IMG/VR virus record: IMGVR_UViG_3300045988_165974
Span: 32,001-96,000 of that record
Source of the DNA: a virus
Reading direction: 5' to 3' (one strand)
DNA length: 64,000 bases
This document shows, piece after piece, positions 10,178 through 53,961 of the stretch (the stretch's first letter is position 1; each line of letters starts with the position of its first letter). The notes below the pieces were generated by a model. That model did no database searches, was not told where the DNA came from, and was given only the letters and a program-made list of their open reading frames with translations. The translations under genes were made by a program, and so were the position numbers.

Positions 10178-10193
10178 ATAACTGGGATTGAAC

Positions 10194-12132: not shown

Positions 12133-12453
12133 ATAAAAATTTCTAGCTAGAAAATAATTAAAATTAATTAGATTAAAATTCATTATACTTGGTTAACTCC
12201 CTGATTTCTTTTAGTTGTGTATCAGGGGAAAACAACAAGTAATTACTATATTAACTTAATAGGATATTATACTTCCGACATTCTTATTAATCGCTATCGG
12301 ATGTGCGATTTATTTTGTTTGCAAACATCTTTAGTGTAGTTCCCGTAAAAAACTTACTTGCTATAAAAAAAACTTTCAGAAATCACTACACATGACAGAT
12401 TATGTAGGTGGGGTCTGTCTCCATACACCATACAAACGAGATGATTTTTTCTT

Positions 12454-12519
12454 TGGACTTAATCGGAATTGAACCGATAACATCATGCCTGATAATTTTC
12501 CCCATTAAACTATAAGTCC
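12454..12519 (-). ncRNA. tRNA-like gene lacking an anticodon (4-nt loop)
   Basis: Acceptor GGACTTA/TAAGTCC, a D arm, and T arm ATCGG-TTCAATT-CCGAT. The anticodon arm is only TATCA-GGCA-TGATG. Total length is 66 nt. Confidence 0.55.
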
Positions 12520-12525
12520 ATATAA

Positions 12526-12597
12526 TGACCTATGAGGGAATTGAACCCTCGCCCTCACCGTGAAAGGGTGATGTCTTAGCCACTTGACTAATAGGTC
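12526..12597 (-). tRNA. tRNA-Glu (TTC)
   Basis: Acceptor GACCTAT/ATAGGTC, anticodon arm TCACC-CTTTCAC-GGTGA, T arm GAGGG-TTCAATT-CCCTC. Confidence 0.8.
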
Positions 12598-12602
12598 ATG
12601 CT

Positions 12603-12679
12603 TGGTCTAAGTAGAGGGACTCGAACCCCCAGTCTCCACATCCCAAATGTGGCGGTCTACCAAATTAACCTATACCTAG
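12603..12679 (-). tRNA. tRNA-Pro (TGG)
   Basis: Acceptor CTAGGTA/TACTTAG, anticodon arm CCACA-TTTGGGA-TGTGG, T arm GGGGG-TTCGAGT-CCCTC, A73 and an encoded CCA. Confidence 0.8.
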
Positions 12680-12851
12680 ATATTAGAGTCTAGCATCAAA
12701 ATACTAGGCTTAATCATAACAATAATTTTTAATCAAGACTCTATTTAATACTCGTTTTTAACAGAAACGTAATTAATAAATTGCTGTTAGAGTCTTTTTA
12801 TAAATATTTAGCCAGAAAACCCATTCCCTTTAGGTGATGGGATGAATGGCG

Positions 12852-14114: not shown

Positions 14115-14425
14115 AAACAGATATTCCTTTCATTAAATTAAATTAATAACTCAGCTACACAAGTAACTGTTATGCGTACTATACTGTACTGTTACCATAC
14201 AGTTGTTTCGACTTCAACTCGACAATGATATAAAGGCTTTTTACATATACATTACAAGGCTGTTCTTACTCTGACCTAACTTAAATGTATACGATAGAGC
14301 AATGGTCTGTTGCGTCAACCAAAGGTATCATGACTTAAATATCGTAGCCATCATTTCTGTGGCTTAGTCTGGTGAACCATTTAACAGAAGCCCATAAGCT
14401 TTAGCTTGTGGGTAGTTCACTTAAT
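14115..14425 (-). ncRNA. putative IscB omega-RNA scaffold
   Basis: About 300 nt directly 5' of iscB, locally GC-richer and ORF-free. It has several helices, e.g. GTGAAC..GTTCAC and CCCACAAGCT-AA-AGCTTATGGG. The position matches published IscB omega-RNAs. Confidence 0.65.
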
Positions 14426-14695
14426 TATTCCTGGAAGGAGATTTTTCAATTACAATGCACAAATATTATTAATAAAATCCTTTTTTTATCATAAACATAA
14501 TTGCTGTATGTGCATTTAATTATATTAACTTTAAGAAGGTACTTATCAAGACACTAAACATTATAAATATGAAACTTCCTAGAATTGTTCAATTTATTTT
14601 GAGGATTTGAACCTCTAAAGCACTTGTTTATTGACTTATTTACCTATTTGAATTAATTGCTGTAAGTGTCTTTTGAATGTATATTTTTAGAACAG

Positions 14696-14811
14696 GACGG
14701 GAAGTAGGAGTCGAATCTACAACCTACGGCTTAAATGGCAAATTAAAATGCTGTTAGTGTATCCCTTCTATACACATATTACGTTGCTCTACCCGTTGAG
14801 CTATTCCCGTC
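14696..14811 (-). ncRNA. tRNA-His-like gene with about 45 extra nt and degenerate anticodon and T arms
   Basis: G-1 plus ACGGGAA/TTCCCGT plus C73 (His signature). D arm GCTC-AACGGGTA-GAGC. Then hairpin GTGTAT-AGAAGGG-ATACAC followed by TAACAGCATT. Only 3 bp of anticodon stem remain. Confidence 0.5.
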
Positions 14812-14818
14812 ATAATGT

Positions 14819-14936
14819 TGCCGAAGAATAGATTTGAACTATTATCCTATAGCTTCCCTGTTTGAAATTGCTGCTTATGTATTTATCAATACATCTATTT
14901 ATTGGCTATTGCTCCAACCATTTGAGCTACTTCGGC
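14819..14936 (-). ncRNA. tRNA-like gene with a 51-nt anticodon loop
   Basis: Perfect acceptor GCCGAAG/CTTCGGC, D arm GCTC/GAGC, anticodon stem ATAGC/GCTAT and T arm AATAG-TTCAAAT-CTATT. The loop holds hairpin ATGTATT-GATA-AATACAT plus AAGCAGCAAT. Confidence 0.65.
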
Positions 14937-29441: not shown

Positions 29442-29470
29442 TTGACAATATAAAGTATATAAGCTACAAT
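29442..29470 (+). promoter_or_regulatory. early promoter 1
   Basis: TTGACA, a 17-nt spacer, then TACAAT. An AAAACTTTT-rich UP-like tract lies upstream. Confidence 0.6.
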
Positions 29471-29542
29471 ATAAGAAACAGTACTTTTAATATATTAGTT
29501 AACAGGCTTTTAAAAAAAGTTTAAAAACTTTTAAAAAAGTAG

Positions 29543-29571
29543 TTGACAGAGGATTAAAAAAGTACTATACT
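29543..29571 (+). promoter_or_regulatory. early promoter 2
   Basis: TTGACA, a 17-nt spacer, then TATACT, with the same UP-like tract upstream. Confidence 0.6.
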
Positions 29572-29637
29572 TAAATTAATAAATGAGTTGATAGTTTTAC
29601 ACTAAAAACTTATTTATTACATATTAACCATAGGAAG

Positions 29638-29667
29638 TTGACTTATTCAACTACTATACTTTATAAT
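29638..29667 (+). promoter_or_regulatory. early promoter 3
   Basis: TTGACT, a 17/18-nt spacer, then TATAAT. Confidence 0.5.
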
Positions 29668-30042
29668 AAAGGGGACTAGTAAAGTATTAGTTATCTTATA
29701 TCCTCACCTAAACAACTTGTAGCTTTATAACTTGTACGGTAAAATAAAATATTCGACAACTTTGGGAAATCCTTCAATATACCGACTACTCTTTTATGTA
29801 GTAGCTCATTTCAGTATATTAAAAGCCTGTATCTTGAAGTGCTTAAGAGTGCTTGGAGTTAGGAGTATAAGAGTAACAACTCTTTGGATTAAGAATAAAT
29901 TTTTATCTTTAACCTTTTAACCCTTTTTAAAGGTGTGTGGGTTACCTATTGAAAACCCACTAACATTTTAAAATTAATCTTTGGGTATAAGGTGACAACT
30001 TTATACTCAAACACTAGTTTTAAAATAAAAGGGGGATATAAA

Positions 30043-30246
30043 ATGATAAATTTAAGAAAAAAACCAGTAGAGACTAAAAATTATAGTGTGGAATTAGACA
30101 ATAACAACTCTATGTTATTTAAAAATTTCTTACATGGATTAGGAGCAACTTTTGAAACAAGTTCATGTTATAATCTTGTACATTTTAGTTTAAATTTAAC
30201 TCATAGACAATATGTAAGAGTTAGTAACTTTTTAGATTTATTATAA
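30043..30246 (+). CDS. small hypothetical protein
   Basis: ATG 7 nt after AAAGGGGGA. The track ORF's upstream extension lacks an RBS. Confidence 0.5.
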   Translation: MINLRKKPVETKNYSVELDNNNSMLFKNFLHGLGATFETSSCYNLVHFSLNLTHRQYVRVSNFLDLL

Positions 30247-30254
30247 TTATTCAA

Positions 30255-30335
30255 GGGACTTTAAAAGTCCCTTCATGGTATTAGTGGTTGATAACCTTCT
30301 CGTGGTGATACCGTTTAAACTAATTTTAATCAACC
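30255..30335 (+). ncRNA. cap hairpin + HDV-like ribozyme candidate (copy A1, most divergent)
   Basis: Hairpin GGGACTTTAAAAGTCCC. P1 GGTATTA/TGATACC, P2 GGTTGAT/ATCAACC, L3 TTCTCGT, J4/2 CTAA. It lacks the G1.U wobble and the GG for P1.1. Confidence 0.5.
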
Positions 30336-30362
30336 AAATTTTAAGATAAAAGGGGATAAAAA

Positions 30363-30494
30363 ATGAAAAAATCATTAATTTTAGCTTTAATCATAACTAT
30401 ATTTTGCATGAGTTTAACTTGCTATCAAGTTTCAAGTGATGAAATTCAAGCAACTTTTTTAAACGGATTATTTGATATTACAATTTCATTATAA
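30363..30494 (+). CDS. small secreted/lipoprotein-like peptide (43 aa)
   Basis: ATG after AAAAGGGGA. MKKSLILALIITIFCMSLTC... Below the ORF-track length cutoff. Confidence 0.45.
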   Translation: MKKSLILALIITIFCMSLTCYQVSSDEIQATFLNGLFDITISL

Positions 30495-30507
30495 GGGGGA
30501 TAAAAAA

Positions 30508-30807
30508 ATGAAAACTATGCTAGATATTAATACAAGTGGAGATTATAGAATACATTTAGGACTTGACAAAGGATTTTTAGTAGTGCTAGATAATCAACCT
30601 GTAAATACTATAGGAGTTAAACCAATAAATTGTTGTATTTATAAATTTCCTGAAAATGCGAACTTTGAAGAGTCTGAAATTGTTGAAAATATGCAAGACT
30701 ATATTTTCGTTGCTCCAGTTCGATTTTATGTAGACTTTGATAAAATTGACACTAACATGATGGAGAAAATAACAACTCGAGCATTAAATCATGTTGGTAG
30801 ATATTAA
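30508..30807 (+). CDS. small hypothetical protein
   Basis: ATG after AAGGGGGA. Confidence 0.5.
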   Translation: MKTMLDINTSGDYRIHLGLDKGFLVVLDNQPVNTIGVKPINCCIYKFPENANFEESEIVENMQDYIFVAPVRFYVDFDKIDTNMMEKITTRALNHVGRY

Positions 30808-30812
30808 ATGAG

Positions 30813-30886
30813 GGGACTTTAAAAGTCCCATATGGTAACAAGAGTCAACCTCCCCGTGGTGTTACTGGATAACCAACTAATGACTC
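30813..30886 (+). ncRNA. cap hairpin + HDV-like ribozyme candidate (A2)
   Basis: P1 GGTAACA/TGTTACT (G1.U), P2 GAGTCA/TGACTC, P3/L3 ACC-TCCCCGT-GGT, GG for P1.1, CTAA. Predicted cut at 30833/30834. Confidence 0.65.
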
Positions 30887-30914
30887 AAATATAATAAAGT
30901 AAAGGGGATTAAAG

Positions 30915-31256
30915 ATGATGTTAAAAGAAAAATTAAACGAAATGAAAGCTAATTCAGAAGGAATAAAACTATTTGTAATTGACGATATTTTAAAATTCAA
31001 CGAAAGTGATGACGATATAAAAGCATATATTAACGATGCATTAACTTATGGTTGTTCTAGTGGTTGTGTATCTTGTTTAATCTACTATGTAGATACTCAA
31101 AAATTCTTTGATAAATATCAAGACGAAATTCTTGAAATGCTTGAAAATGCTAAAGTTGAATATGGAATAACTTTCGAAATTAATTCAAATAATCTAGCAT
31201 GGTTTGGCTATGAAGAGACTTTACGAAACATAGCAACTGAATTAGGTATTTGGTAA
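30915..31256 (+). CDS. small acidic hypothetical protein
   Basis: AAAGGGGA RBS, ATGATG start. Confidence 0.55.
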   Translation: MMLKEKLNEMKANSEGIKLFVIDDILKFNESDDDIKAYINDALTYGCSSGCVSCLIYYVDTQKFFDKYQDEILEMLENAKVEYGITFEINSNNLAWFGYEETLRNIATELGIW

Positions 31257-31262
31257 AATGAA

Positions 31263-31345
31263 GGGACTTTTAAAGTCCCTAAATGATAACAAGAGTTTAC
31301 CTCCCCGTGGTGTTATTGGAAACAAGGAAACTTGGCTAAAAACTC
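31263..31345 (+). ncRNA. cap hairpin + HDV-like ribozyme candidate (A3)
   Basis: P1 GATAACA/TGTTATT (G1.U), P2 GAGTTT/AAACTC, the same L3, P4 CAAG-GAAA-CTTG, GGCTAA. Predicted cut at 31284/31285. Confidence 0.65.
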
Positions 31346-31374
31346 AAATTTAAGATAAAAAGGGGATAAAAAAG

Positions 31375-31929
31375 ATGATGAAAAATTTAGTAAATTTAAA
31401 CGAGTTTGAATTGAATAGGGATAATGTAAAAGCTATACTTGAAAATAATTCAGAGTTTAGAAATAGCCTTGAAAGTGATTATTTTGATAGTGAAGTTTAT
31501 TATTATACAACTGAGTTATTAGACAGAATAGATGGCATAAACTGGAGAATAGATTTTGGTTCAGTTGAAATTTGGAAAGGTTTTAGCTCAAATATACTTG
31601 ATATTGTAAAAAGCATATTAGATATTGATTATTTCTTTATAAATGATACGGATATTCTTTTACAAAAATTAGAAGTTTTCTATAATGCTTTATACACTTG
31701 TCCACAGTATGGTAATCGTTTCGATAGACTAGAAGGAAGAACAGAGCAACTTTTAGAAATATTATTTACTAAAATAGAAGATAGCATTAAATCAAGTTTA
31801 GATTACATGGATGATATTGATAATCTTACAGACTGGTATATTGATTCAGGCTATGATGAAAGTTTAACTTGGAGTGGAATGTATATCAATCCAAAGACTT
31901 TCGAATTGTACGAGTTAAAACATTTATAG
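31375..31929 (+). CDS. acidic hypothetical protein
   Basis: 184 aa. RBS AAAGGGGA, ATGATG start. Confidence 0.55.
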   Translation: MMKNLVNLNEFELNRDNVKAILENNSEFRNSLESDYFDSEVYYYTTELLDRIDGINWRIDFGSVEIWKGFSSNILDIVKSILDIDYFFINDTDILLQKLEVFYNALYTCPQYGNRFDRLEGRTEQLLEILFTKIEDSIKSSLDYMDDIDNLTDWYIDSGYDESLTWSGMYINPKTFELYELKHL

Positions 31930-31971
31930 AAATGAAGGTAAAAATCATGACAAGGGCTGCGGTCCTTGTCT

Positions 31972-32025
31972 ATTTGTAAACCTACCGAGGGCGGTCCAAA
32001 GTCCGTGTAAAAGGTGATGGCAAAT
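31972..32025 (+). ncRNA. twister ribozyme candidate (C1)
   Basis: P1 ATTTG/CAAAT, T|AA, P2 ACCT/AGGT, P4 GCGG/CCGT with loop TCCAAAGT, then GATGG. Predicted cut at 31977/31978. Confidence 0.7.
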
Positions 32026-32045
32026 TATAAAGGGGGATAAAAAAG

Positions 32046-32213
32046 ATGAAAAAAAGAATTATAGCAATTTCAGGATTATTAGTAATAGGAATGATGGTAT
32101 TTCATAAGCCATTAAGCTTAAAAGCTATGGATATAGTAGACTATTATGGAGAAAAAACTGGTAAAAATGTTGTATCCGTGATAGACTTTTTAAATGAAGT
32201 TTATTATCTATAA
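32046..32213 (+). CDS. small membrane/secreted peptide (55 aa)
   Basis: ATG after AAAGGGGGA. Hydrophobic N-terminus. Below the ORF-track cutoff. Confidence 0.45.
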   Translation: MKKRIIAISGLLVIGMMVFHKPLSLKAMDIVDYYGEKTGKNVVSVIDFLNEVYYL

Positions 32214-32218
32214 ATGAT

Positions 32219-32303
32219 GGGACTTTCAAAGTCCCTATATGGTAGTAATTGGTTCGCCTCCACGTGGCACTACTGGAAACAAGTTTACTTGGCTAAGAAC
32301 CAA
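32219..32303 (+). ncRNA. cap hairpin + HDV-like ribozyme candidate (A4)
   Basis: P1 GGTAGT/ACTACT (G1.U), P2 TTGGTTC/GAACCAA, L3 TCCACGT, P4 CAAG-TTTA-CTTG, GGCTAA. Predicted cut at 32240/32241. Confidence 0.65.
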
Positions 32304-32323
32304 AAAAAGAAGGGATAAAAAAG

Positions 32324-32644
32324 ATGATAAAAAAGATTGAAGAAAAAATTAAAGAATTAGGCTTCGTTGTAGGTTGTTACAATGATAAAATTGATGACAT
32401 TTTAACTCCAGGAGCAACACGTAAAGTTTGTGGGTTACTAGAAGAAGAATACACAGACGAATTGATGCGAATTAGAGGTAAACTATATAAAGTCTGTATA
32501 GCAACTGTTGACAATGAAAAAGATATCAATATATATCATGCATTAGACTATTACAGACAATACGGAGAAGAACATCTGGATAATGACTATGAAGAAAAAA
32601 TGATGACTTTAAAGGAATATAAAGCTTTAAAAATGATGGTATAA
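32324..32644 (+). CDS. small acidic hypothetical protein
   Basis: RBS AAGGGA. Confidence 0.5.
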   Translation: MIKKIEEKIKELGFVVGCYNDKIDDILTPGATRKVCGLLEEEYTDELMRIRGKLYKVCIATVDNEKDINIYHALDYYRQYGEEHLDNDYEEKMMTLKEYKALKMMV

Positions 32645-32723
32645 GGCAAAAAATTCGAAACCGTGGGTTTTCCACGGTCTACAAATGATAGGCTAATTGT
32701 ACTGACGAGATAGCCTTTGTCTT
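32643..32723 (+). ncRNA. type II hammerhead ribozyme candidate (B1)
   Basis: Open stem II AAGGCAA/TTGTCTT. CGAAAC-stem III-GTC. Stem I TACAA/TTGTA. CTGACGAG. Loop I/stem II pseudoknot TAGGCT/AGCCTA. Predicted cut at 32679/32680. Confidence 0.75.
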
Positions 32724-32754
32724 TTGTAAAAATGATGATGAAAAGGGGATAAGA

Positions 32755-33042
32755 ATGATGAGAGAACATGCAATATATAAAGATTATATCAGATATATAG
32801 GAGATGGATTTAATTTTTCAGAATTATATTCATATGAAGACGGTAAAGAATTACATTTCAATAAATTTATGGATTATTGGGAAGACTCTAAAACTGGTAG
32901 ATTTTATCGTTGGAAAAATTCAAAAGATAATAAAATTATAAAAGAATGTCATGAAGAAACGCTTGATTATTTTGGATTTAAATCTAGTCGACTAAATGAT
33001 GATAAAGAATCTTTAGAAGATGAAGAATATCTACCATTCTAA
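32755..33042 (+). CDS. small hypothetical protein
   Basis: RBS AAAGGGGA, ATGATG start. Confidence 0.5.
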   Translation: MMREHAIYKDYIRYIGDGFNFSELYSYEDGKELHFNKFMDYWEDSKTGRFYRWKNSKDNKIIKECHEETLDYFGFKSSRLNDDKESLEDEEYLPF

Positions 33043-33044
33043 TG

Positions 33045-33126
33045 AAGGTAATAAATTCGAAACAAGGGATTTTCCCTTGTCTGTAAATGATAGGCTCTTT
33101 ATACTGACGAGATAGCCTATTACCTT
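33045..33126 (+). ncRNA. type II hammerhead ribozyme candidate (B2)
   Basis: Stem II AAGGTAAT/ATTACCTT, stem III AAGGGA/CCCTT, stem I TGTAAA/TTTATA, CTGACGAG. Predicted cut at 33081/33082. Confidence 0.75.
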
Positions 33127-33153
33127 TACAATAGAAATGAAGGGGGATTAAAG

Positions 33154-33408
33154 ATGATGAAAAATTTAGAGTGTGTATATGATAGCAGAAAATCATTTTA
33201 TGGAAAGGCAAAAGTTGAAACTAATTCAAATGAAGGTATAATTACTTTATATAGCTACGGAACAAAAGTAGCTTGTATAAAAGATGGTAAACCAGAACTT
33301 TTATGGAATGGATATTCCCAAACAACTTACAGACATATAGCCGAATTCTTTAAACAAAATGGTTTTATGGAATATAGTTCAAAAGCAGTAATTCAAACTT
33401 TATTGTAA
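33154..33408 (+). CDS. small hypothetical protein
   Basis: RBS AAGGGGGA, ATGATG start. Confidence 0.5.
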   Translation: MMKNLECVYDSRKSFYGKAKVETNSNEGIITLYSYGTKVACIKDGKPELLWNGYSQTTYRHIAEFFKQNGFMEYSSKAVIQTLL

Positions 33409-33416
33409 TTTTTTAA

Positions 33417-33445
33417 TTGACATTTTTACACAAAAATGATACTAT
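33417..33445 (+). promoter_or_regulatory. internal promoter of the early operon
   Basis: TTGACA, a 17-nt spacer, then TACTAT. Confidence 0.6.
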
Positions 33446-33448
33446 TAA

Positions 33449-33551
33449 ATCAAGAGGAGTAATCCCCTGGTTCTTAATGCAGTAGCTAATAGCTAGAGGT
33501 CGCAACTCCTCATAAAACATATGCAGAGCGAGAAAATGAAAGGGGATAAAG
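33449..33551 (+). promoter_or_regulatory. structured 5' leader (riboswitch-like?)
   Basis: GAGGAGT...ACTCCTC and GAGG..CCTC are competing helices. TCCCCT is complementary to the downstream SD AGGGGA. See the finding. Confidence 0.4.
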
Positions 33552-33998
33552 ATGATGAAAATAAAAGAATTATATGAAAACATTAGTAACTGTTTAGATT
33601 GGATTAAAATCAATAATAGTGATTTAAAAGACATATTTGAAGGTGCTAAGGCATTAAGAAGAGGAATTCAAGTCCTAGAATATGACAAAGAAATGATAGG
33701 CAAAATTGATGATAACTATTTTATTTCAAATTTTATTATGGATATTTTAGAAAAAAATCTTCCAGAGTACCAATTAAGTTTAGACATGATTGATGACATT
33801 TTAGAAGAACTAGATATAGATGATGATACTTTAGAAGAATTAGATGAAAGCGAATTTGAAAATCATGTTATAATCAAAAATACTTTCGTAGATGTAAAAG
33901 AGTCAATTTCTTTTGATGATTACTGGGATGGATTAGACTTTGATAGTCTTTTAAAAAGATTTGAGTTTGCAAAAGAGGAAATTGGTTACTTATTATAA
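33552..33998 (+). CDS. very acidic hypothetical protein
   Basis: 148 aa, rich in D/E. Confidence 0.55.
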   Translation: MMKIKELYENISNCLDWIKINNSDLKDIFEGAKALRRGIQVLEYDKEMIGKIDDNYFISNFIMDILEKNLPEYQLSLDMIDDILEELDIDDDTLEELDESEFENHVIIKNTFVDVKESISFDDYWDGLDFDSLLKRFEFAKEEIGYLL

Positions 33999-34090
33999 GT
34001 TTAAATTCGAAACAGGGAATACAGGAAATCCTGTATTGCTTGTCTATAAGTAACAGGCTGCTTGTACTGATGATGATAGCCTAAGCTTAT
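33995..34090 (+). ncRNA. type II hammerhead ribozyme candidate (B3)
   Basis: Stem II ATAAGTTTA/TAAGCTTAT, a 14-bp stem III, stem I TATAAG/CTTGTA, CTGATGA+T. Predicted cut at 34044/34045. Confidence 0.7.
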
Positions 34091-34115
34091 AAATATAACG
34101 ATAAAAGGGGATAAA

Positions 34116-34373
34116 ATGATGAACAATTTAAAATGGCAAAAACTTATAAGTAATTTGGATACAGAAGAAGGTAGACAAGAGTTTATAAAAATTGCTTCTT
34201 CTGGAATGTATTCAGGTGAAAATATTGATGGTGAAAAAGTCATAACCATTGTTTCTCAGGGAGTGGGAATGATAGTAAAAACTAAACATCACGAAAAGCC
34301 AAACTGGTGGGAATGTGTTGATTATGACGAACTTGGCTGCATGGAGTGTGTAACATACGAAAGAGCCGAATAA
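34116..34373 (+). CDS. small hypothetical protein
   Basis: RBS AAAGGGGA, ATGATG start. Confidence 0.5.
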   Translation: MMNNLKWQKLISNLDTEEGRQEFIKIASSGMYSGENIDGEKVITIVSQGVGMIVKTKHHEKPNWWECVDYDELGCMECVTYERAE

Positions 34374-34376
34374 ATT

Positions 34377-34468
34377 GAAGGATAAATTCGAAACAAGTGA
34401 TACGGGTTTTCTGTATTACTTGTCTATAAGGTTAAGCTACTTATACTGACGAGATAGCTTAATCCTTC
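34377..34468 (+). ncRNA. type II hammerhead ribozyme candidate (B4)
   Basis: Stem II GAAGGAT/ATCCTTC, stem I TATAAG/CTTATA. The pseudoknot covaries here to TAAGCT/AGCTTA. Predicted cut at 34424/34425. Confidence 0.75.
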
Positions 34469-34491
34469 TAAAATGAAAGGGGATAAAAAAG

Positions 34492-35019
34492 ATGATGAAA
34501 AAAGAAAACATTGAAAGATTTTTAAAGTTATTAAATTCAGAAGAAATAAGCGATAAAATAAAAGATATGTATCTTGACTTACTAGAGAGTCATATAGATG
34601 ATGACCTTGGAGTCAAAATAGAAATCATATTAAGCCTAGATGGAGAAGTAGATAACAGATTTTTTACAGGTAATTCAACTAGAATGGACGTATATGAAGG
34701 CAACTCAATTGTTGTGGCAGCCATCAGACATGATGTAAATATTACTGATGAAATGATGGGAGAAATAGTCGATGTATTAAGTAATGATGTATATGAAGAA
34801 TTTGTTCAATATCTTTATGGATTAGACGATATTCCAGAAGAAGAGCAAGAAGAATATCTTGAAGAAAATCTTACTTGGGATAATTTCTATGACTTTGATT
34901 CTATAATATATGGAGAAATTCAGAGAGAAGCTTGGGAAAACAATGTTGACTACTATGGAAATGAAGAAATTGACCAAAAGCTTTATGAATGTATTCAACA
35001 ATTAGAAAATCTTTTATAG
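34492..35019 (+). CDS. very acidic hypothetical protein
   Basis: 175 aa, rich in D/E. Confidence 0.55.
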   Translation: MMKKENIERFLKLLNSEEISDKIKDMYLDLLESHIDDDLGVKIEIILSLDGEVDNRFFTGNSTRMDVYEGNSIVVAAIRHDVNITDEMMGEIVDVLSNDVYEEFVQYLYGLDDIPEEEQEEYLEENLTWDNFYDFDSIIYGEIQREAWENNVDYYGNEEIDQKLYECIQQLENLL

Positions 35020-35034
35020 GAGCAGCAATGCTCC

Positions 35035-35095
35035 ACTCTAAACTCACTTGGCACATGTCAAAAGGTCCAAAGTCCTTGAAAAGAGTGATGGGAGT
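35035..35095 (+). ncRNA. twister ribozyme candidate (C2)
   Basis: Preceded by hairpin GGAGCA-GCAA-TGCTCC. P1 ACTC/GAGT, P2 ACTC/GAGT, P3 TGGC-ACAT-GTCA, P4 AAGG/CCTT with loop TCCAAAGT. Predicted cut at 35039/35040. Confidence 0.7.
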
Positions 35096-35156
35096 AAAGG
35101 CGAAGTTACCAAAATGCTCGTCTAAATATAATGGTAACAATAAAAAGGGGGTAAAT

Positions 35157-35471
35157 ATGAAGGTATATTTAGGAAATGCATTTAGTTTGCAAATGATAAG
35201 TACAACAAAGGATACAGACATAAGAGTTTCACCAGTTGATGTTCAAACTGTAAAAGATAGTGATTTTATATCAATTGTAGGTCATCAAGATACTGCATCT
35301 GTAGTTGGAAACATCTTAGGAAAAGATGTACCTTGCAATCGAGTTTCTGTTAGTTTGAGTAAAGGAGATATTTTATATGTAGCACAAATTGTTGGTGGCA
35401 GACTTCCTGTGGGAGCTACTTGTTTACCAAACGGCTTTAAATTAACATTCTTGAAAGTAACTATCTTGTAA
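35157..35471 (+). CDS. DUF1874 / AcrIII-1-family ring nuclease (cyclic tetra-adenylate degrading anti-CRISPR)
   Basis: MKVYLGNAFSLQMI...IVGHQDTA...NRVSVSLSKGDILYVAQ...GRLPVG parallels SIRV1 gp29 as I remember it (KVYLANAFSINML...SIGHDST...NRVEIKLEKEDKLYVVQ...RLEEG). ATG at 35157 follows AAAGGGGG. Confidence 0.8.
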   Translation: MKVYLGNAFSLQMISTTKDTDIRVSPVDVQTVKDSDFISIVGHQDTASVVGNILGKDVPCNRVSVSLSKGDILYVAQIVGGRLPVGATCLPNGFKLTFLKVTIL

Positions 35472-35537
35472 ATAATATGAGGTTTGGGAGTCCTTTTAAA
35501 ACTCCCCCTAAATATGAAAATGAAGGGAGAAATAAAA

Positions 35538-35675
35538 ATGGAAGAAAAAAGAGAAATGACAATAGAAGAAGAATTTGAAAAACATATGAAGACTATGGAA
35601 GGACATGTATGCTACGGTTGTAGTGGTTGTAAATTTGCTTTCTATGGAGTTTGTCCATATGCTTTAGAGGGGTAA
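35538..35675 (+). CDS. small Cys-rich peptide (45 aa)
   Basis: ATG after AAGGGAGA. Contains CYGCSGC...C. Confidence 0.4.
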   Translation: MEEKREMTIEEEFEKHMKTMEGHVCYGCSGCKFAFYGVCPYALEG

Positions 35676-35683
35676 AACCTCTC

Positions 35684-35746
35684 TTGCTTTAAACTAGCCA
35701 CCAGAAGGTGAGAGTCCAAAGCCTCTGTGAATAGTGATGGGAGTAA
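35684..35746 (+). ncRNA. twister ribozyme candidate (C3)
   Basis: P1 TTGCTT/GAGTAA (with G.U pairs), P2 ACTA/TAGT, P3 CACC-AGAA-GGTG, P4 AGAG/CTCT with loop TCCAAAGC. Predicted cut at 35690/35691. Confidence 0.7.
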
Positions 35747-35766
35747 ATAAAAGGGGGTAAACGATA

Positions 35767-35967
35767 ATGATGAAGAATGAAAATAATTTTGAAAGGATAA
35801 TATGTGATAGCTTATGGGACATAAAACAGAATTATCCAAATATTGAATTGTCTAAACATCTATTCTATATAGACACCTTTGAAAGATTAGGATATGGCAA
35901 AAAAGGAATAGAAATAACTTTAAATAACAATGATAAGTATATTATTACTAAAGTTGAAAATGATTAA
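35767..35967 (+). CDS. small hypothetical protein
   Basis: RBS AAGGGGG, ATGATG start. Confidence 0.5.
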   Translation: MMKNENNFERIICDSLWDIKQNYPNIELSKHLFYIDTFERLGYGKKGIEITLNNNDKYIITKVEND

Positions 35968-35968
35968 T

Positions 35969-36063
35969 ATAGTCTAAATTCGAAACAGAGGAAAGAATGA
36001 AGGTTCTTTTCTTTGTCTATAATAAGATAGGCTCTTTATACTGATGATGATAGCCTAGACTAT
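35969..36063 (+). ncRNA. type II hammerhead ribozyme candidate (B5)
   Basis: Stem II ATAGTCT/AGACTAT, stem I TATAA/TTATA, CTGATGA+T. Predicted cut at 36017/36018. It is the last element before the operon terminator. Confidence 0.7.
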
Positions 36064-36205
36064 TATAAAAGGTTAGATAAAATGCTATCAAGAACTCATG
36101 AAAGTGAGTGTTGAATATATTATCATTTTTTGGGAGAGGGTTGCCCTCTCCTATCCCCAATATAGTAGATAAATGATAGTGATATCATTAAATATATATT
36201 ATGTA

Positions 36206-36236
36206 ATCTCTCCAATTGAGAGGTTATTTTTTTTTA
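36206..36236 (+). terminator. intrinsic terminator of the early operon
   Basis: CTCTC-CAATT-GAGAG followed by T10. Confidence 0.7.
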
Positions 36237-45733: not shown

Positions 45734-46903
45734 TTGCTAAAGAGTTACAAAACGGAAATAAACCCAACACAGGAACAAATACAAAAGATAAATAAAACAA
45801 TTGGAACTTGTAGATTTATTTATAATTTTTACATCGCTCATAATAAAGAACTCTATAACAAGGGCGAAAAATTTATGACGGCAAAATCATTCAGTGTTTG
45901 GTTAAATAATGAATTTCTACCAAATAATCCGAATTATTCATGGATAAAAGAAGTAAGTTCTAAATCAGTTAAAAAATCTATGGAAAATGCTTATACTGCT
46001 TTTAATAAGTTTTTTAAGAAACAAAGTAAGTTTCCTAGATTTAAGAAAAAGAATAAATCTGATGTAAAAATGTACTTTGTAAAAAATAATCCAAAAGATT
46101 GTTTCTGTGAAAGACATAGAATTAATATTCCTACTCTTGGATGGATTAAATTAAAAGAAAAGGGATATATTCCTACTACTAAAGACGGATATGTAATTAA
46201 AAGTGGTACGGTTTCTTGCAAAGCTGGAAGATATTATGTATCAGTTTTAATTGATACTTCTGATACAGAAAAACCACAATTAAATGACTTTGGATTAGGA
46301 ATTGATTTAGGTGTTAAAGAATTTGCGGTAATTAGTAATGGAACTATAAAGAAAAATATAAATAAAACTGCTAAATTAAAAAAAATAGAAAAACAATTAA
46401 AAAGAGAACAGCGTTGCCTATCGAGAAAATACGAAGGATTAAAGAAACGCAACAATAAAATGAAAGGAGAAGCCACTAGGCAAAATATTAAAAAACAAGT
46501 CTTAAAGGTACAGAAACTTCATCAAAGAATGGATAATATTCGTACTGATTATATCAATAAATGTGTAAATGAGATAGTGAAAACCAAGCCATCTTATATT
46601 ACCATTGAAGATTTGAATGTAAAAGGAATGATGAAGAATAAACATCTCTCTAAGGCAGTTGCTTCACAGAAATTCTATGAATTTAGAACTAAACTTGAAA
46701 CAAAATGCAAAGAATTAGGAATTGAATTAAGAATTGTAAATAGGTGGTATCCATCGAGTAAATTGTGTCATGAATGTGGTTGTATCAATAAAGATTTAAA
46801 ACTTTCTGACAGAGAATATATTTGTGGATGTGGATACCATGCTGATAGAGATTATAATGCAAGTCTTAATTTGAGAGATGCAATATCCTACAAAATAGCA
46901 TAA
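45734..46903 (+). CDS. tnpB: TnpB RNA-guided nuclease (IS200/IS605 OrfB family)
   Basis: RuvC D (GIDLGVKEFAV), E (ITIEDLNVKGM), Zn finger CHECG...CGCG, and DRDYNASLNL. TTG start. Confidence 0.9.
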   Translation: MLKSYKTEINPTQEQIQKINKTIGTCRFIYNFYIAHNKELYNKGEKFMTAKSFSVWLNNEFLPNNPNYSWIKEVSSKSVKKSMENAYTAFNKFFKKQSKFPRFKKKNKSDVKMYFVKNNPKDCFCERHRINIPTLGWIKLKEKGYIPTTKDGYVIKSGTVSCKAGRYYVSVLIDTSDTEKPQLNDFGLGIDLGVKEFAVISNGTIKKNINKTAKLKKIEKQLKREQRCLSRKYEGLKKRNNKMKGEATRQNIKKQVLKVQKLHQRMDNIRTDYINKCVNEIVKTKPSYITIEDLNVKGMMKNKHLSKAVASQKFYEFRTKLETKCKELGIELRIVNRWYPSSKLCHECGCINKDLKLSDREYICGCGYHADRDYNASLNLRDAISYKIA

Positions 46904-47090
46904 ACAAGCATTTGTAGGTATGTACCGATGGCTTTAGTCGGGAATTTACGACTGTGGACTGTACAAGAACTTGTGAGTAGTGTATTACTTTGTAATCACA
47001 AAAGCATACAGGATGAAACAGTAAGAAAAGTTTGTGAAAACTTTCAATATCTCGATATGGGTATATTTGTCCATATTTTGAGTGGCAGGA
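46780..47090 (+). ncRNA. putative TnpB omega/reRNA scaffold and right end
   Basis: ORF-free, GC-richer stretch overlapping and following the tnpB 3' end. Hairpin CCGATGGCTTTAGTCGG (46925-46941) and AATTTACGAC..TGGA, also seen after the second tnpB. Ends are uncertain. Confidence 0.45.
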
Positions 47091-51613: not shown

Positions 51614-52579
51614 ATGAATAAATTTTTAAAAGAAATTGAGAAAACAAATAAAATAGCCTTATTAACTTACGGAGGTAGCTATGCATATGGAACAAATGTA
51701 GAGGGCTCTGACATTGATTTAAGGGGCATATTTTTACCATCTAAATTAGAAATACTATCTATGACTTGCTGCGACAAGGCTCTTACGGATAATGAAACAG
51801 ATACTGTTATGTATCCCTTAAAACAAATGATTCAATTATTATGTAATGCAAATCCTAATACAATTGAAATATTAGGGACTAGAGAACAGGATATATTTAA
51901 GATATCTAAAGAGGGACAAATGCTTAAAGATAATGTAGATTTATTTTTAACAAAAGGAAAAGTTCATTCTGCACTCTTAGGATATGCTCAAAATCAATTG
52001 AGAAGATTAAAAAATGCAATAGCTCGAGATGATTTAGAACAGACAGAAAAAGAGAAACATATTTTACAGTCTGTTGAAAAGAGAATGTCTACTTTCGAGC
52101 AATCATATGCTCCAATAACAAACGGAGAATTAAAGCTGCACATAGAAAAATCAAATAAAGAAGATTTAGAAGAGGAAATTATGATAGACATGTGCTTAAA
52201 AAATTATCCATTACGAGACTGTAAAAAAATGTTAGATGAAATGGCAATAACCTTAAAACAATATGGAAAATTAAATCACAGAAATAAAAAGAAAGACGAA
52301 CAACATCTTCTGAAACATTCTATGCACCTTGTGAGACTTTATTTAATGGGAATTGATATATTACAAGGAAATGGAATTAAAACTTACAGAGAGGACGACA
52401 GGGAGTTATTATTAGATATTAGAAATGGCAAATATTCTTATGAACAAATTTATAATATGGCAGAAAAATTAGAAGAAGAATTTAAAGATGCATTACAGAC
52501 AAGCAGCTTACCTGAGAAATTAGATTATGATAAAATAAATAATTTAGTTGCAGAAATAAACAAACAAATATTGAAATAA
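51614..52579 (+). CDS. Pol-beta-fold nucleotidyltransferase, RlaP-like (RNA-ligase-associated family)
   Basis: LLTYGGSYAYGTNVEGSDIDLRGIF is the GS...SD.D signature of the PF10127-type predicted nucleotidyltransferases. Confidence 0.6.
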   Translation: MNKFLKEIEKTNKIALLTYGGSYAYGTNVEGSDIDLRGIFLPSKLEILSMTCCDKALTDNETDTVMYPLKQMIQLLCNANPNTIEILGTREQDIFKISKEGQMLKDNVDLFLTKGKVHSALLGYAQNQLRRLKNAIARDDLEQTEKEKHILQSVEKRMSTFEQSYAPITNGELKLHIEKSNKEDLEEEIMIDMCLKNYPLRDCKKMLDEMAITLKQYGKLNHRNKKKDEQHLLKHSMHLVRLYLMGIDILQGNGIKTYREDDRELLLDIRNGKYSYEQIYNMAEKLEEEFKDALQTSSLPEKLDYDKINNLVAEINKQILK

Positions 52580-53004: not shown

Positions 53005-53961
53005 TTGAAAATGCTAAAACTTATAACTCATAATGATTTAGATGGAGTTGGGTGTGGGATTATTGCAAGCTACATACTAGGGAATGGAATAGACATAAGT
53101 TATTGCAGTAATCATCAGGTCGATAAAGTTTTTTCAGATACATTATCTAGTGGAGAATATGAAATGATAATTTTAACAGATGTAAGTATCAATAAAGAAA
53201 ATGCAGAAAAAGTTAAAGAATCAGATATGAATGTTCTTTTATTAGACCATCATCCAACTGCACTTTGGTTAAATGAATATCCGTTTGCTAAAGTTCTTAT
53301 AGGAGATACAGATGGAACAAAGACTTGTGGAACTCAATTATTTGCAAGTTTCCTTTATCAATCAATGGAGGAAGATAAAGATTTCCACAAAGGTAGAAAA
53401 ATGTTTGAAATGGTTACAAATAAAGTTCTTTGGAAATTTGTAAAACTAGTAACCTATTGGGACACATGGCAATGGAAAGAAGAAAATATATTAGAAGCAA
53501 AAGAGCTTAATATGTTATTTGACATTTATGGACTTGAAGAATTTTCAAAGTTAATTAAAAAGAAATTTGAAAACTATGAACTATATGGAGACGATTCTAG
53601 TTTCTTTGGAATGGCAGAAAGGCATGTATTAAAATTAAGACAAAGAGAAATAGATGATTTGTTCAAAAAGAAAAACAAATCACTAAAGAAAACTAAATTC
53701 GAAGGTTATAATGTTGGAGTTATATTCTGTGATAGATTTTATTCAGAAATAGGAAATAGAATTTGTGAAGAGAATTCTGACATAGATTTTGTAGTTATGT
53801 TACAAGACCATACTACAAGCCTTAGAGGTATAGATAAAGTTAATTTAGGAGATATCGCCAAAAAATATGGTGGTGGAGGACATAATAATGCCGCAGGATT
53901 CCCAATTGGTGCGGTAAATTTTATAGATGAAATATTGGGTGATATGAATGATTTCTTATAA
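53005..53961 (+). CDS. DHH/DHHA1-family phosphoesterase (NrnA-like)
   Basis: ITHNDLDGVGCG (motif I), TDVS, LLLDHHP (DHH), GGGHNNAAGF (DHHA1). Confidence 0.85.
   Translation: MKMLKLITHNDLDGVGCGIIASYILGNGIDISYCSNHQVDKVFSDTLSSGEYEMIILTDVSINKENAEKVKESDMNVLLLDHHPTALWLNEYPFAKVLIGDTDGTKTCGTQLFASFLYQSMEEDKDFHKGRKMFEMVTNKVLWKFVKLVTYWDTWQWKEENILEAKELNMLFDIYGLEEFSKLIKKKFENYELYGDDSSFFGMAERHVLKLRQREIDDLFKKKNKSLKKTKFEGYNVGVIFCDRFYSEIGNRICEENSDIDFVVMLQDHTTSLRGIDKVNLGDIAKKYGGGGHNNAAGFPIGAVNFIDEILGDMNDFL

What the first reader, a model, noticed from the sequence alone, without database searches (positions are those of the whole stretch)
32643..36063. Five type II hammerhead candidates with covarying stems and a covarying loop I / stem II pseudoknot
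**Copies:** 32643-32723, 33045-33126, 33995-34090, 34377-34468, 35969-36063.

**Shared order:** stem II 5' strand, AAATTC, GAA, AC[stem III hairpin]GTC, cut, stem I hairpin, CTGA(C/T)GA, G..AGCCTA, stem II 3' strand.

**Core.** All invariant hammerhead core positions are present: C3 U4 G5 A6 N7 G8 A9, G12 A13 A14, A15.1/U16.1 and C17.

**Helices differ in sequence but stay paired.**
- Stem II: AAGGCAA/TTGTCTT, AAGGTAAT/ATTACCTT, ATAAGTTTA/TAAGCTTAT, GAAGGAT/ATCCTTC, ATAGTCT/AGACTAT.
- Stem I: TACAA/TTGTA, TGTAAA/TTTATA, TATAAG/CTTGTA, TATAAG/CTTATA, TATAA/TTATA.
- Stem III: 5-14 bp, unrelated sequences.

**Pseudoknot.** Loop I (TAGGCT) is complementary to an internal bulge of stem II (AGCCTA). 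In copy 4 both sides change together, to TAAGCT/AGCTTA. This is the loop I/stem II tertiary pseudoknot reported for type II hammerheads.

**Other points**
- Predicted cuts fall after GTC at 32679/80, 33081/82, 34044/45, 34424/25 and 36017/18.
- Copies 3 and 5 have one extra U after A9 (CTGATGA-T-G).
- In B1 the upstream stop codon lies inside stem II, so ribozyme folding and translation termination overlap.
Basis: partly seen in the sequence, partly recalled or inferred. Interest (0 to 1): 0.75.

Follow-up and report, generated by a model that had tools for sequence, protein, structure and literature searches.

The report
Five phage type II hammerhead ribozymes
Five short self-cutting RNAs of a well-known class (type II hammerhead ribozymes) sit between small genes of a phage operon that holds about 13 ribozymes of three classes; this arrangement is already described for phages, so the finding is real but mostly ordinary.

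Summary

**Identity**
- All five elements carry the complete hammerhead core: CUGAYGA, GAA, A15.1-U16.1 and C17.
- A 5-6 bp pseudoknot joins loop I to the nucleotides just 3' of stem II.
- This is the type II hammerhead architecture of Perreault et al. 2011.

**Tests**
- A covariance model built only from 40 unrelated viral sequences finds exactly these five sites in the 64-kb window. They score 53-70 bits (E 1e-12 to 1e-16); the next best hit scores 12.8 bits.
- Rfam's Hammerhead_II model misses all five. In control loci it also missed 21 of 22 hammerheads, so that miss carries little weight.

- The covarying 7-10 bp "stem II" is an extra closing helix outside the pseudoknot strand. It is specific to this phage lineage.

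**Context**
- The copies belong to a 6.5-kb operon that also holds four HDV-like and four twister ribozymes, roughly one per intergenic gap.

**Most likely role (inferred)**
- The ribozymes cut the polycistronic transcript into single-gene mRNAs whose ends are capped by hairpins.

**Verdict**
- New members of a known kind; moderate-to-low interest.

The parts
32643..32723 (+). Hammerhead 1 (type II). Closing helix 32643-32649 / 32717-32723. AAAUUC 32651-32656. GAA 32657-32659. Stem III hairpin 32660-32678. C17 at 32679, cut 32679/80. Stem I hairpin 32680-32701. CUGACGA 32702-32708. GA (10.1-10.2) 32709-32710. Pseudoknot strand within 32711-32716.
   Evidence: R2 70.1 bits, E 2e-16; fold z -3.4
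33045..33126 (+). Hammerhead 2 (type II). Closing helix AAGGUAAU 33045-33052 / AUUACCUU 33119-33126. Cut 33081/82.
   Evidence: R2 69.1 bits; fold z -4.1; orthologue L003:1067-1135
33995..34090 (+). Hammerhead 3 (type II, extra U between A9 and G10.1). Closing helix 33995-34002 / 34083-34090, which contains the upstream stop codon 33996-33998. Cut 34044/45.
   Evidence: R2 53.2 bits; fold z -4.7; orthologues L003:2309-2388 and L020:13865-13944 lack the extra U
34377..34468 (+). Hammerhead 4 (type II). Closing helix GAAGGAU 34377-34383 / AUCCUUC 34462-34468. The pseudoknot is changed on both sides (UAAGCU/AGCUUA). Cut 34424/25.
   Evidence: R2 62.0 bits; fold z -5.7; orthologue L001:375-453 has a different 14-bp stem III sequence that still pairs
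35969..36063 (+). Hammerhead 5 (type II, extra U). Closing helix AUAGUCU 35969-35975 / AGACUAU 36057-36063. Cut 36017/18. It follows the last gene of the operon.
   Evidence: R2 55.8 bits; fold z -3.4
30276..32305 (+). Context: four HDV-like ribozymes at about 30276-30334, 30834-30886, 31285-31346 and 32242-32305. Each lies 5-7 nt downstream of a GGGACUUUNAAAGUCCC hairpin.
   Evidence: The fourth scores 37.7 bits against Rfam HDV-F-prausnitzii, below the family threshold of 44. Alignment A5 shows a conserved core and a covarying P1. The first three are read by eye only.
31973..35744 (+). Context: four twister-P1-like ribozymes at 31973-32024, 33471-33534, 35035-35095 and 35686-35744.
   Evidence: Rfam RF03160 scores 36-46 bits, E 1e-6 to 3e-4, below the family threshold of 67.2. 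Orthologues occur in L001, L003 and L020.
29442..29667 (+). Three strong sigma-70-like promoters (11 of 12 matches each) at the head of the operon.
   Evidence: consensus scan only
33417..33445 (+). Internal promoter-like site TTGACA-17-TACTAT with an extended -10 TG. It lies about 25 nt upstream of the twister at 33471.
   Evidence: sequence
36203..36236 (+). Terminator-like hairpin plus a T9 run that closes the operon.

Best explanation
**What they are.** The five elements are cis-acting type II hammerhead ribozymes of the pseudoknot subclass. They are transcribed as part of a phage early-type operon on the + strand.

**How each one folds.**
- Stems I and III are hairpins.
- Stem II is a 2-bp helix (UC/GA).
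- Loop I pairs with the six nucleotides just 3' of stem II, which holds stems I and II parallel.
- A lineage-specific 7-10 bp closing helix pairs the two flanks and seals the module.

**The reaction.** The 2'-OH of C17 attacks its own 3' phosphate and cuts after GUC.
- The upstream RNA then ends in the stem III hairpin plus C with a 2',3'-cyclic phosphate.
- The downstream RNA begins with a 5'-OH at the first base of the stem I hairpin.

**Inferred role.**
- Together with four HDV-like and four twister ribozymes in the same operon, they cut the polycistronic transcript at nearly every intergenic gap.
- This gives single-gene mRNAs whose ends are buried in structure, each with a standard leader before a strong ribosome-binding site. 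The arrangement resembles a natural ribozyme insulator.

**Shown versus inferred.** Sequence, structure and family relationship are shown here. Cleavage itself is inferred from the family. The stability or insulation role is inferred from the anatomy.
For: **Core and helices.**
- The complete core is present in all five copies.
- Helices covary among the copies.
- Across 40 unrelated relatives, 99.1% of cells are paired, 218 cells change on both sides, and 0 of 500 shuffles reach this; slid controls give 27-50% paired.

**Pseudoknot.**
- Among 29 non-redundant unrelated relatives, 62% have a Watson-Crick match of at least 5 nt. Loops cross-paired with other sequences' tails give 5.5%. None of 20,000 permutations reached the observed mean.
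- The pseudoknot sequences differ widely between members: GAUCAA, GUUCAA, GCUCAA, GCCCA, AAACAC, GGCUAU and others.

**Independent model.** R2 finds only these five sites in the window, at 53-70 bits.

**Link to the curated family.** L010 has the same AAAUUCGAAAC...CUGAUGAGAUAG-pseudoknot layout and passes Rfam Hammerhead_II at 42.6 bits (threshold 37).

**Orthologues keep pairing despite sequence change.** The 14-bp stem III of copy 4 has a different sequence in L001, yet still pairs.

**Literature.**
- PMC3088659 describes type II hammerheads with a loop I / 3'-tail pseudoknot and stem II as short as 1-2 bp.
- It reports k_obs above 1.2 per min for a construct with a 1-bp stem II.
- It also describes arrays flanking prophage genes that cleave in vitro and in vivo.
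- PMC8782182 shows type II hammerheads near phage-like genes cleaving in vivo.
- An extra nucleotide between A9 and G10.1 has precedent: in the CChMVd hammerhead, a U at that position raised the rate 3-4-fold (PMC3705267).

**Anatomy supporting the role.**
- Every ribozyme lies between a stop codon and a ribosome-binding site. The next start codon is 30-37 nt after the pseudoknot strand.
- All three ribozyme classes have a hairpin within about 10 nt upstream of the cut.
- A twister sits directly after the internal promoter.
Against: - No cleavage assay or transcript-end data exist for this phage.
- Rfam Hammerhead_II gives no hit at all.
- In another type II hammerhead, adding one base pair to stem II, or inserting or deleting nucleotides around the pseudoknot, reduced activity (PMC3088659). 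The closing helix and the extra U could therefore slow copies 3 and 5.
- After the cut, the 7-10 bp closing helix could keep the two products together.
- From my own recollection, 5'-OH ends are substrates of RNase J1 in Firmicutes (the glmS ribozyme case). If so, protection would rest entirely on the 5' hairpin.
- The stability or insulation role is untested in any phage. The field regards the function of such arrays as open (PMC6765202).
Confidence: 0.8

Rival explanations
1. Translation-coupled or conditional ribozymes. The closing helix and the 5' edge of the ribozyme overlap the upstream stop codon. Ribosomes terminating there would melt the fold. Either they block cleavage while the upstream gene is being translated, or they release products that the closing helix would otherwise hold together. 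Cutting would then report on translation rather than being constitutive.
For: - Stop codons lie 7-13 nt upstream of AAAUUC in all five copies, in or within 3 nt of the closing helix.
- In at least 24 of 40 unrelated type II hammerheads, the stop codon UAA of an upstream ORF of at least 59 codons overlaps the (U)AAAUUC edge.
- The closing helix is predicted in every minimum-free-energy fold.
- PMC3088659 raises regulated cleavage as a possibility for phage hammerheads.
Against: - Tight packing of phage genes, together with an A-rich 5' edge, could produce the overlap without any coupling.
- Most relatives lack the closing helix.
- Natural hammerheads with tertiary contacts usually cleave during transcription, before ribosomes arrive (my own knowledge).
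Confidence: 0.12
2. The elements serve mainly as conserved boundary sequences for recombination that shuffles gene cassettes. Their hammerhead-like sequence would be a relic.
For: - Cassette order differs between the window and its relative L003, with joints at ribozyme edges and at the shared ribosome-binding-site/start region.
- The genes flanked by ribozymes are not shared with unrelated ribozyme-bearing loci.
Against: - A relic would not keep every core nucleotide invariant while stems III and I, the pseudoknot and the closing helix change by compensatory substitution.
- Recombination sites need sequence identity, not preserved pairing.
- The two roles are not exclusive.
Confidence: 0.04
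3. Ribozyme pairs flanking each gene produce 5'-OH and 2',3'-cyclic phosphate ends that an RtcB-type ligase rejoins. This would give circular or re-spliced RNAs.
For: - The end chemistry fits RtcB.
- The related phage phiCD211 is annotated with a tRNA splicing ligase and an RNA 2'-phosphotransferase.
- The window encodes an RlaP-family RNA-repair protein.
Against: - No RtcB was found among the window ORFs I scanned.
- Perreault et al. looked for spliced or circular products from hammerhead arrays and found none (PMC3088659).
- phiCD211 has no such hammerheads in the 50 kb I examined.
Confidence: 0.03
4. The stem III hairpins act as intrinsic terminators for antisense transcription.
For: On the - strand, the stem III hairpins of copies 1 and 2 are followed by a T-rich run (CGAATTTTTT) and were listed as terminator-like.
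Against: - Only two of the five copies were listed.
- The T-rich run is simply the complement of the conserved GAAAUUU.
- This reading explains none of the conserved core, stem I or the pseudoknot.
Confidence: 0.01

Closest known systems
Type II hammerhead ribozymes with a loop I / 3'-tail pseudoknot (Perreault et al. 2011, PMC3088659; Rfam RF02276)
   Same: - Full catalytic core.
- Open stem II of 2 bp, with hairpin-capped stems I and III.
- A 5-6 bp pseudoknot between loop I and the nucleotides just 3' of stem II.
- Location in phage DNA between genes, several per operon.
   Different: - An added 7-10 bp closing helix pairs the 5' flank with the sequence after the pseudoknot strand, so the pseudoknot strand becomes an internal loop.
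- The elements are A+U-rich, with long loop I (10-13 nt) and long stem III (8-14 bp).
- They score below any reportable level with the Rfam model.
- Two copies carry an extra U between A9 and G10.1.
Clustered hammerheads flanking prophage genes (Clostridium scindens, Agrobacterium tumefaciens ardA; PMC3088659), and the co-occurrence of twister and hammerhead ribozymes (PMC6765202)
   Same: Ribozymes flank single genes or short gene blocks whose identities vary. The transcript is predicted to be cut into gene-length pieces.
   Different: Here three classes (HDV-like, twister, hammerhead) share one 6.5-kb operon, with about 13 ribozymes and one in almost every gap. The density and the mix are at the high end of what the papers I could read describe.
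RiboJ-type synthetic ribozyme insulators
   Same: Works alike. A self-cleaving ribozyme between the promoter or upstream context and the ribosome-binding site removes variable upstream RNA. It leaves a fixed, structured 5' leader. The promoter at 33417 followed by a twister matches that layout.
   Different: This is a natural element. It is mostly intercistronic rather than promoter-proximal. The function is untested.
CChMVd (+) hammerhead with an extra nucleotide between A9 and G10.1 (PMC3705267, citing De la Pena and Flores 2001)
   Same: An extra base sits at the same core position as the U in copies 3 and 5. In that ribozyme, a U at this position was the most active variant.
   Different: That ribozyme is a viroid hammerhead with loop-loop contacts, not a pseudoknot. 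In the phage lineage the insertion comes and goes between orthologues.

Membership tests
Hammerhead ribozyme, type II | Conserved core C3 U4 G5 A6 N7 G8 A9 / G12 A13 A14 / A15.1-U16.1 / H17 | tested here: met
   All five copies carry CUGA(C/U)GA, GAA, A...U and C17. Copies 3 and 5 have one inserted U between A9 and G10.1.
Hammerhead ribozyme, type II | Three helices around the core with standard pairs next to the core (10.1-11.1, 1.1-2.1, 15.1-16.1), supported by covariation | tested here: met
   G10.1-C11.1, U1.1-A2.1 and A15.1-U16.1 are present in all five. 97% of cells are paired and 7 pairs change on both sides. In 40 relatives, 99.1% are paired and 218 cells change on both sides.
Hammerhead ribozyme, type II | [quoted passage not shown] | tested here: met
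   The order is 11.x - GAA - stem III hairpin - C17 - stem I hairpin - CUGANGA - 10.x.
Hammerhead ribozyme, type II | Pseudoknot between loop I and the nucleotides immediately 3' of stem II (present in most type II members) | tested here: met
   UAGGCU/AGCCUA in four copies and UAAGCU/AGCUUA in copy 4. Family-wide: none of 20,000 permutations reached the observed pairing.
Hammerhead ribozyme, type II | Score at or above the Rfam RF02276 gathering threshold (an operational criterion, not a biological one) | tested here: not met
   No hit even at E<=10. Control: only 1 of 22 hammerheads in 11 loci reached the threshold. The model consensus is G+C-rich, with a 9-bp stem I and a 3-nt loop.
Hammerhead ribozyme, type II | Match to an independent covariance model of the family | tested here: met
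   R2, built from 40 non-window viral sequences, scores the copies at 53-70 bits, E 1e-12 to 1e-16. One training member (L010) passes Rfam RF02276. Caveat: the training loci were fetched with a core pattern taken from the window, and they were aligned with a model (R1) built from the window copies.
Hammerhead ribozyme, type II | Site-specific self-cleavage giving 2',3'-cyclic phosphate and 5'-OH ends | not testable with these tools
   Requires transcription and cleavage assays, or end-specific RNA-seq.
Twister ribozyme, type P1 (context elements) | Score at or above the Rfam RF03160 gathering threshold | tested here: not met
   36.4-46.6 bits against a threshold of 67.2. The E-values (1e-6 to 3e-4) and full-length alignments support relatedness.
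HDV-like ribozyme (context elements) | Nested double-pseudoknot fold with a G at the cut site at the base of P1 and a catalytic C in J4/2 | tested here: inconclusive
   One copy scores 37.7 bits against a threshold of 44. Four aligned copies share the CCUCC...CGUGG core and a covarying P1. I did not model the full fold.
Intrinsic terminator | G+C-rich hairpin followed by a U run on the transcribed strand | tested here: not met
   On the + strand, stem III is followed by C|UAUAA, not a U run. Only the complement of two copies resembles a terminator.

The most novel reading that the evidence does not exclude
The hammerheads may be coupled to translation termination.

- In this lineage the closing helix lies on or beside the upstream stop codon.
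- In most unrelated type II hammerheads the stop codon UAA is itself the first three bases of the conserved (U)AAAUUC edge.
- A terminating ribosome must therefore unfold the ribozyme.
- Cutting, or release of the helix-tethered products, would then depend on whether the upstream gene is being translated. That would give the phage a per-gene link between translation and mRNA severing.
- This would assign a specific purpose to the long-unexplained ribozyme arrays of phages.
Probability: 0.12. Interest if true: 0.7.

Novelty: new member of a known kind. Interest (0 to 1): 0.38.

Why it matters
The purpose of self-cleaving ribozymes in bacteria and phages is still an open question (PMC6765202). 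This window offers:

- **A compact natural test bed.** One operon holds three ribozyme classes in equivalent positions, each with a hairpin just upstream of the cut and a strong ribosome-binding site downstream. That argues the cut itself and the shape of the new RNA ends are what matter, not the ribozyme class.
- **A gap in annotation.** The curated Rfam type II model missed 21 of 22 such A+U-rich phage hammerheads in the control loci, so their abundance in phage genomes may be underestimated.
- **Two small structural variants with simple experimental predictions.** These are the closing helix and a U insertion that comes and goes between orthologues.

Tried and rejected
**Rfam scans**
- The whole window at gathering thresholds, the whole window at E<=1, and sub-ranges at E<=10 gave no hammerhead hit. 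I traced this to model insensitivity with a control, so I do not treat it as evidence against.
- An Rfam scan of the 420-nt operon leader 29640-30060 for a hidden ribozyme gave only noise.

**Alignment**
- A MAFFT alignment of 22 relatives (A2) misaligned the hairpins. I dropped it in favour of model-guided alignment A4.

**Pseudoknot test**
- A first test that allowed G-U pairs at any offset gave weak separation: mean 4.9 against 3.9. Many members share GGC/GCC. I replaced it with a Watson-Crick, offset-limited test.

**Similarity searches**
- BLAST of the 5.4-kb region against GenBank phages and PLSDB plasmids gave no match.
- BLAST of a single copy against phages gave only chance hits.
- The closest cultured relatives by helicase are Clostridioides phage phiCD211 and its kin, at 52% amino-acid identity. 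No hammerhead was found in 50 kb of phiCD211.
- A pattern scan of 185,579 representative genomes found one locus, in a Bacillota MAG. I did not examine it further.

**Flanking genes**
- Pfam and PHROGs scans of the flanked ORFs found only STIV B116-like (35157-35471) and families of unknown function.
- None of these ORFs recurs next to hammerheads in unrelated loci.

**Literature**
- The Weinberg 2015 ribozyme-neighbourhood paper is not held in the library. Its content is cited only through the review PMC6765202.

Full report
**1. The observation**

Each has this order:
- a 7-8 nt flank strand;
- AAAUUC;
- GAA;
- a hairpin that opens with A and closes with U;
- C;
- a second hairpin;
- CUGA(C/U)GA;
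- in copies 3 and 5, one extra U;
- GAUAGCYU;
- a strand complementary to the first flank.

I recounted the predicted cut sites after GUC against the ruler and they are correct: 32679/80, 33081/82, 34044/45, 34424/25 and 36017/18. The 10-mer AATTCGAAAC occurs exactly five times in the window, all at these sites on the + strand.

On a trimmed alignment of the five copies (A3), the proposed structure including the pseudoknot behaves as follows:
- It pairs 97% of cells.
- When the 3' partners are slid by 1-3 columns, 35-51% of cells pair.
- Seven of 20 pairs change on both sides.
- No shuffle out of 500 reaches the observed values.

**2. Rfam does not recognise them, and why that carries little weight**

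No hammerhead family matched in any of these scans:
- the whole window at gathering thresholds;
- the whole window at E<=1;
- 4.6-kb and 0.5-kb sub-ranges at E<=10.

As a control I scanned 11 viral loci that hold 22 hammerheads by my own models. Only one, L010, reached the Hammerhead_II threshold: 42.6 bits against 37. The alignment printed there shows a G+C-rich consensus with a 9-bp stem I and a 3-nt loop. The phage copies here have 5-6 bp A+U-rich stems I with 10-13 nt loops, because the loop carries the pseudoknot strand. The miss is therefore a property of the model.

**3. An independent family test**

- A core pattern scan of IMG/VR (AAATTCGAAAC..GTC..CTGAYGA) returned 48 loci.
- About 38 of 48 distinct matches also have a stem III of at least 5 bp, a stem I of at least 4 bp, and loop I complementary to the 3' tail. 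None of these was part of the pattern. The rest are chance matches inside coding sequence.
- A first model (R1) built from the five copies found 40 matches in 35 loci unrelated to the window. Several of these lack the exact pattern.
- On that alignment (A4), 99.1% of cells pair, 218 cells carry changes on both sides, and slid controls give 27-50%.
- A second model (R2) was built only from those 40 non-window sequences. Run over the whole window with filters off, it found exactly the five copies at 53.2-70.1 bits (E 7e-12 to 2e-16). The next best hit scored 12.8 bits.
- Caveat: the training loci were fetched with a pattern derived from the window and aligned by R1, so the core match is partly by construction. 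The helices are not.

**4. The pseudoknot**

I used 29 non-redundant unrelated members. A Watson-Crick match of at least 5 nt between loop I and the first nucleotides after G10.1-A10.2 occurs in 62% of them. When loops are paired with other members' tails, the figure is 5.5%. None of 20,000 permutations reached the observed mean.

The paired sequences differ widely between members: GAUCAA, GUUCAA, GCUCAA, GCUAAA, GCCCA, AAACAC, GUGC, GGCUAU and AACCA. This is the tertiary contact that Perreault et al. demonstrated by mutation and rescue. They also showed that stem II can be as short as one or two base pairs (PMC3088659).

**5.

Canonical stem II in these copies is only C11.1-G10.1 and U11.2-A10.2. 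The 3' strand then runs UA, the pseudoknot strand (GCCU), and a further helix that pairs with the 5' flank.

- The closing helix is 7-10 bp in all five copies.
- It is also present in the related phage contigs (L001, L003, L039, L020), where it is 4-11 bp, with wobble and compensatory differences.
- It is absent as a rule from 39 unrelated type II hammerheads: mean 3.2 bp against 2.8 in cross-paired controls.
- Nested-structure folding predicts it in every copy, with z-scores from -3.4 to -5.7.

It is a lineage-specific addition that turns the pseudoknot strand into an internal loop.

**6. The extra U**

Copies 3 and 5 read CUGAUGA-U-GAUAG.
- The same insertion recurs in about a quarter of the unrelated relatives.
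- It comes and goes between orthologues. The L003 orthologue of copy 2 has it, while the L003 and L020 orthologues of copy 3 lack it.
- An extra base at this position is known in the CChMVd hammerhead, where a U was the most active variant (PMC3705267).

It is therefore likely to be tolerated.

**7. Surroundings**

Layout of the operon on the + strand:
- Three strong promoter-like sites lie at 29442-29667. Small genes on the + strand follow. A terminator-like hairpin with nine Ts lies at 36203.
- Four HDV-like ribozymes lie at about 30276, 30834, 31285 and 32242. Each sits 5-7 nt after a GGGACUUUNAAAGUCCC hairpin. One reaches 37.7 bits against Rfam HDV-F-prausnitzii, and the four align with a covarying P1.
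- Four twister-P1-like ribozymes lie at 31973, 33471, 35035 and 35686. They score 36-46 bits, below the gathering threshold but with E 1e-6 to 3e-4.
- With the five hammerheads, this gives about 13 ribozymes in 6.5 kb, one in nearly every gap. The gap at 35472-35538 holds only a hairpin.
- An internal promoter-like site at 33417 is followed about 25 nt later by a twister.
- The next operon's promoter at 36257 has no ribozyme.

Flanked genes:
- They are small and mostly of unknown function. One is STIV B116-like.
- They do not recur beside hammerheads in unrelated loci.

The replicon:
- It looks like a large phage or phage-plasmid of Clostridia. It carries terminase, Clp protease, homing endonucleases and an actin-like partition protein.
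- Its helicase is 52% identical to that of the Clostridioides phage phiCD211 group.
- It has no nucleotide match in GenBank phages or PLSDB.

**8. How it most likely works**

Shown here:
- the elements have the sequence and covarying structure of type II hammerheads;
- they lie in the sense orientation between a stop codon and a ribosome-binding site.

Inferred from the family: they cleave after C17.

Inferred from anatomy:
- The type II permutation leaves the upstream RNA ending in the long stem III hairpin (8-14 bp here).
- It leaves the downstream RNA starting at the first base of stem I.
- The HDV-like and twister units reach the same end state with a separate upstream hairpin.
- The next start codon follows 30-37 nt after the pseudoknot strand.

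Three unrelated ribozyme folds occupy equivalent positions, and one sits directly behind a promoter. This suggests that the useful product is a cut transcript with structured ends and a standard leader. The arrangement would amount to processing into single-gene mRNAs plus insulation from context. Perreault et al. and the 2019 review proposed the same idea in general terms, and both say it remains unproven (PMC3088659, PMC6765202).

**9. Rivals**

- **Translation-coupled variant.** It cannot be excluded. Stop codons sit in or beside the closing helix. In at least 24 of 40 unrelated relatives the upstream ORF ends in the UAA that overlaps the (U)AAAUUC edge.
- **Pure recombination-boundary role.** It has some support: cassette order differs between the window and L003, with joints at ribozyme edges and at the shared ribosome-binding-site/start region. 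However, it does not explain preserved pairing with changing sequence.
- **Circularisation by an RtcB-type ligase.** It fits the end chemistry. I found no RtcB in the window, and earlier work found no such products (PMC3088659).
- **Antisense terminator.** It fits only two copies and none of the conserved core.

**10. Novelty and score**

Already published (PMC3088659, PMC8782182):
- type II hammerheads;
- their pseudoknot;
- their clustering around phage genes.

The co-occurrence of twister and hammerhead ribozymes near the same genes is also published (PMC6765202).

What is new here:
- a set of members that the curated model misses;
- a lineage-specific closing helix;
- an unusually dense mix of three classes in one operon.

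I rate it a new member of a known kind, with interest about 0.38.

Noticed in passing
window 30252-32310 (+): Four HDV-like ribozymes lie in successive intergenic gaps. Each is preceded by a near-identical GGGACUUUNAAAGUCCC hairpin. Only the last was picked up by Rfam, below threshold. P1 covaries among the four.
   Followed up: partly
window 31973-32024, 33471-33534, 35035-35095, 35686-35744 (+): Four twister-P1-like elements score 36-46 bits, well under the Rfam threshold of 67.2 but with small E-values. One lies directly after an internal promoter-like site at 33417.
   Followed up: partly
loci L001, L003, L009, L010, L020, L031, L035, L039, L042, L044, L048: Rfam Hammerhead_II reached its threshold for 1 of 22 type II hammerheads that my models find in these viral loci. 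The model appears to miss most A+U-rich phage members.
   Followed up: yes
40 hammerheads in unrelated viral loci (alignment A4): In at least 24 of 40, an upstream ORF of at least 59 codons ends in a UAA that overlaps the first bases of the conserved (U)AAAUUC edge of the ribozyme (offset -3 to 0). The null model I used was informal.
   Followed up: partly
window 30968-34121 compared with L003 1-2428: The same gene cassettes occur in a different order in the related phage contig. Homology breaks fall at ribozyme edges and in the shared ribosome-binding-site/start region.
   Followed up: partly
window 12852-14420 (-): An IscB-like protein (RRXRR plus HNH domains) has a full-length HEARO RNA (103.9 bits) just upstream of it.
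   Followed up: no
window 45734-47024 and 58516-59758 (+): Two TnpB-like genes (OrfB_IS605 and Cas12f1-like TNB domains) are each followed within about 50 nt by a RAGATH-18 RNA (74.9 and 67.6 bits). The motif may be part of their guide RNA.
   Followed up: no
window 9916-14936 (-): This is a cluster of tRNA genes. Two (10194-10330 and 14819-14936) are far longer than the 71-position model. The alignment of the latter shows a 50-nt insertion after the anticodon stem, which may be an intron.
   Followed up: no
window 10477-11991 (-), 51614-52579 (+), 53005-53961 (+): Three genes stand out: DUF2828/DUF7788, an RlaP-family nucleotidyltransferase (RNA repair pathway), and a DHH/DHHA1 phosphoesterase. 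RlaP, and possibly the other two, point to RNA repair or RNA-end chemistry in a phage full of ribozymes that make 5'-OH and cyclic-phosphate ends.
   Followed up: no
window 29670-30040 (+): A 370-nt leader between the promoter cluster and the first gene has no Rfam match. The related contig L039 carries an extra hammerhead (1391-1458) just after the stretch that aligns with this leader, a copy the window lacks.
   Followed up: partly
window 33053-33119 and 34003-34083 compared with L003 and L020: The extra U between A9 and G10.1 is present in one orthologue and absent in the other, in both directions. In these pairs N7 changes from C to U along with it (CUGACGA-GA to CUGAUGAUGA).
   Followed up: partly
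window 35472-35538 (+): This is the one sizeable intergenic gap of the operon with no recognisable ribozyme. It holds only a GGGAGUCC...ACUCCC hairpin before the next ribosome-binding site.
   Followed up: no
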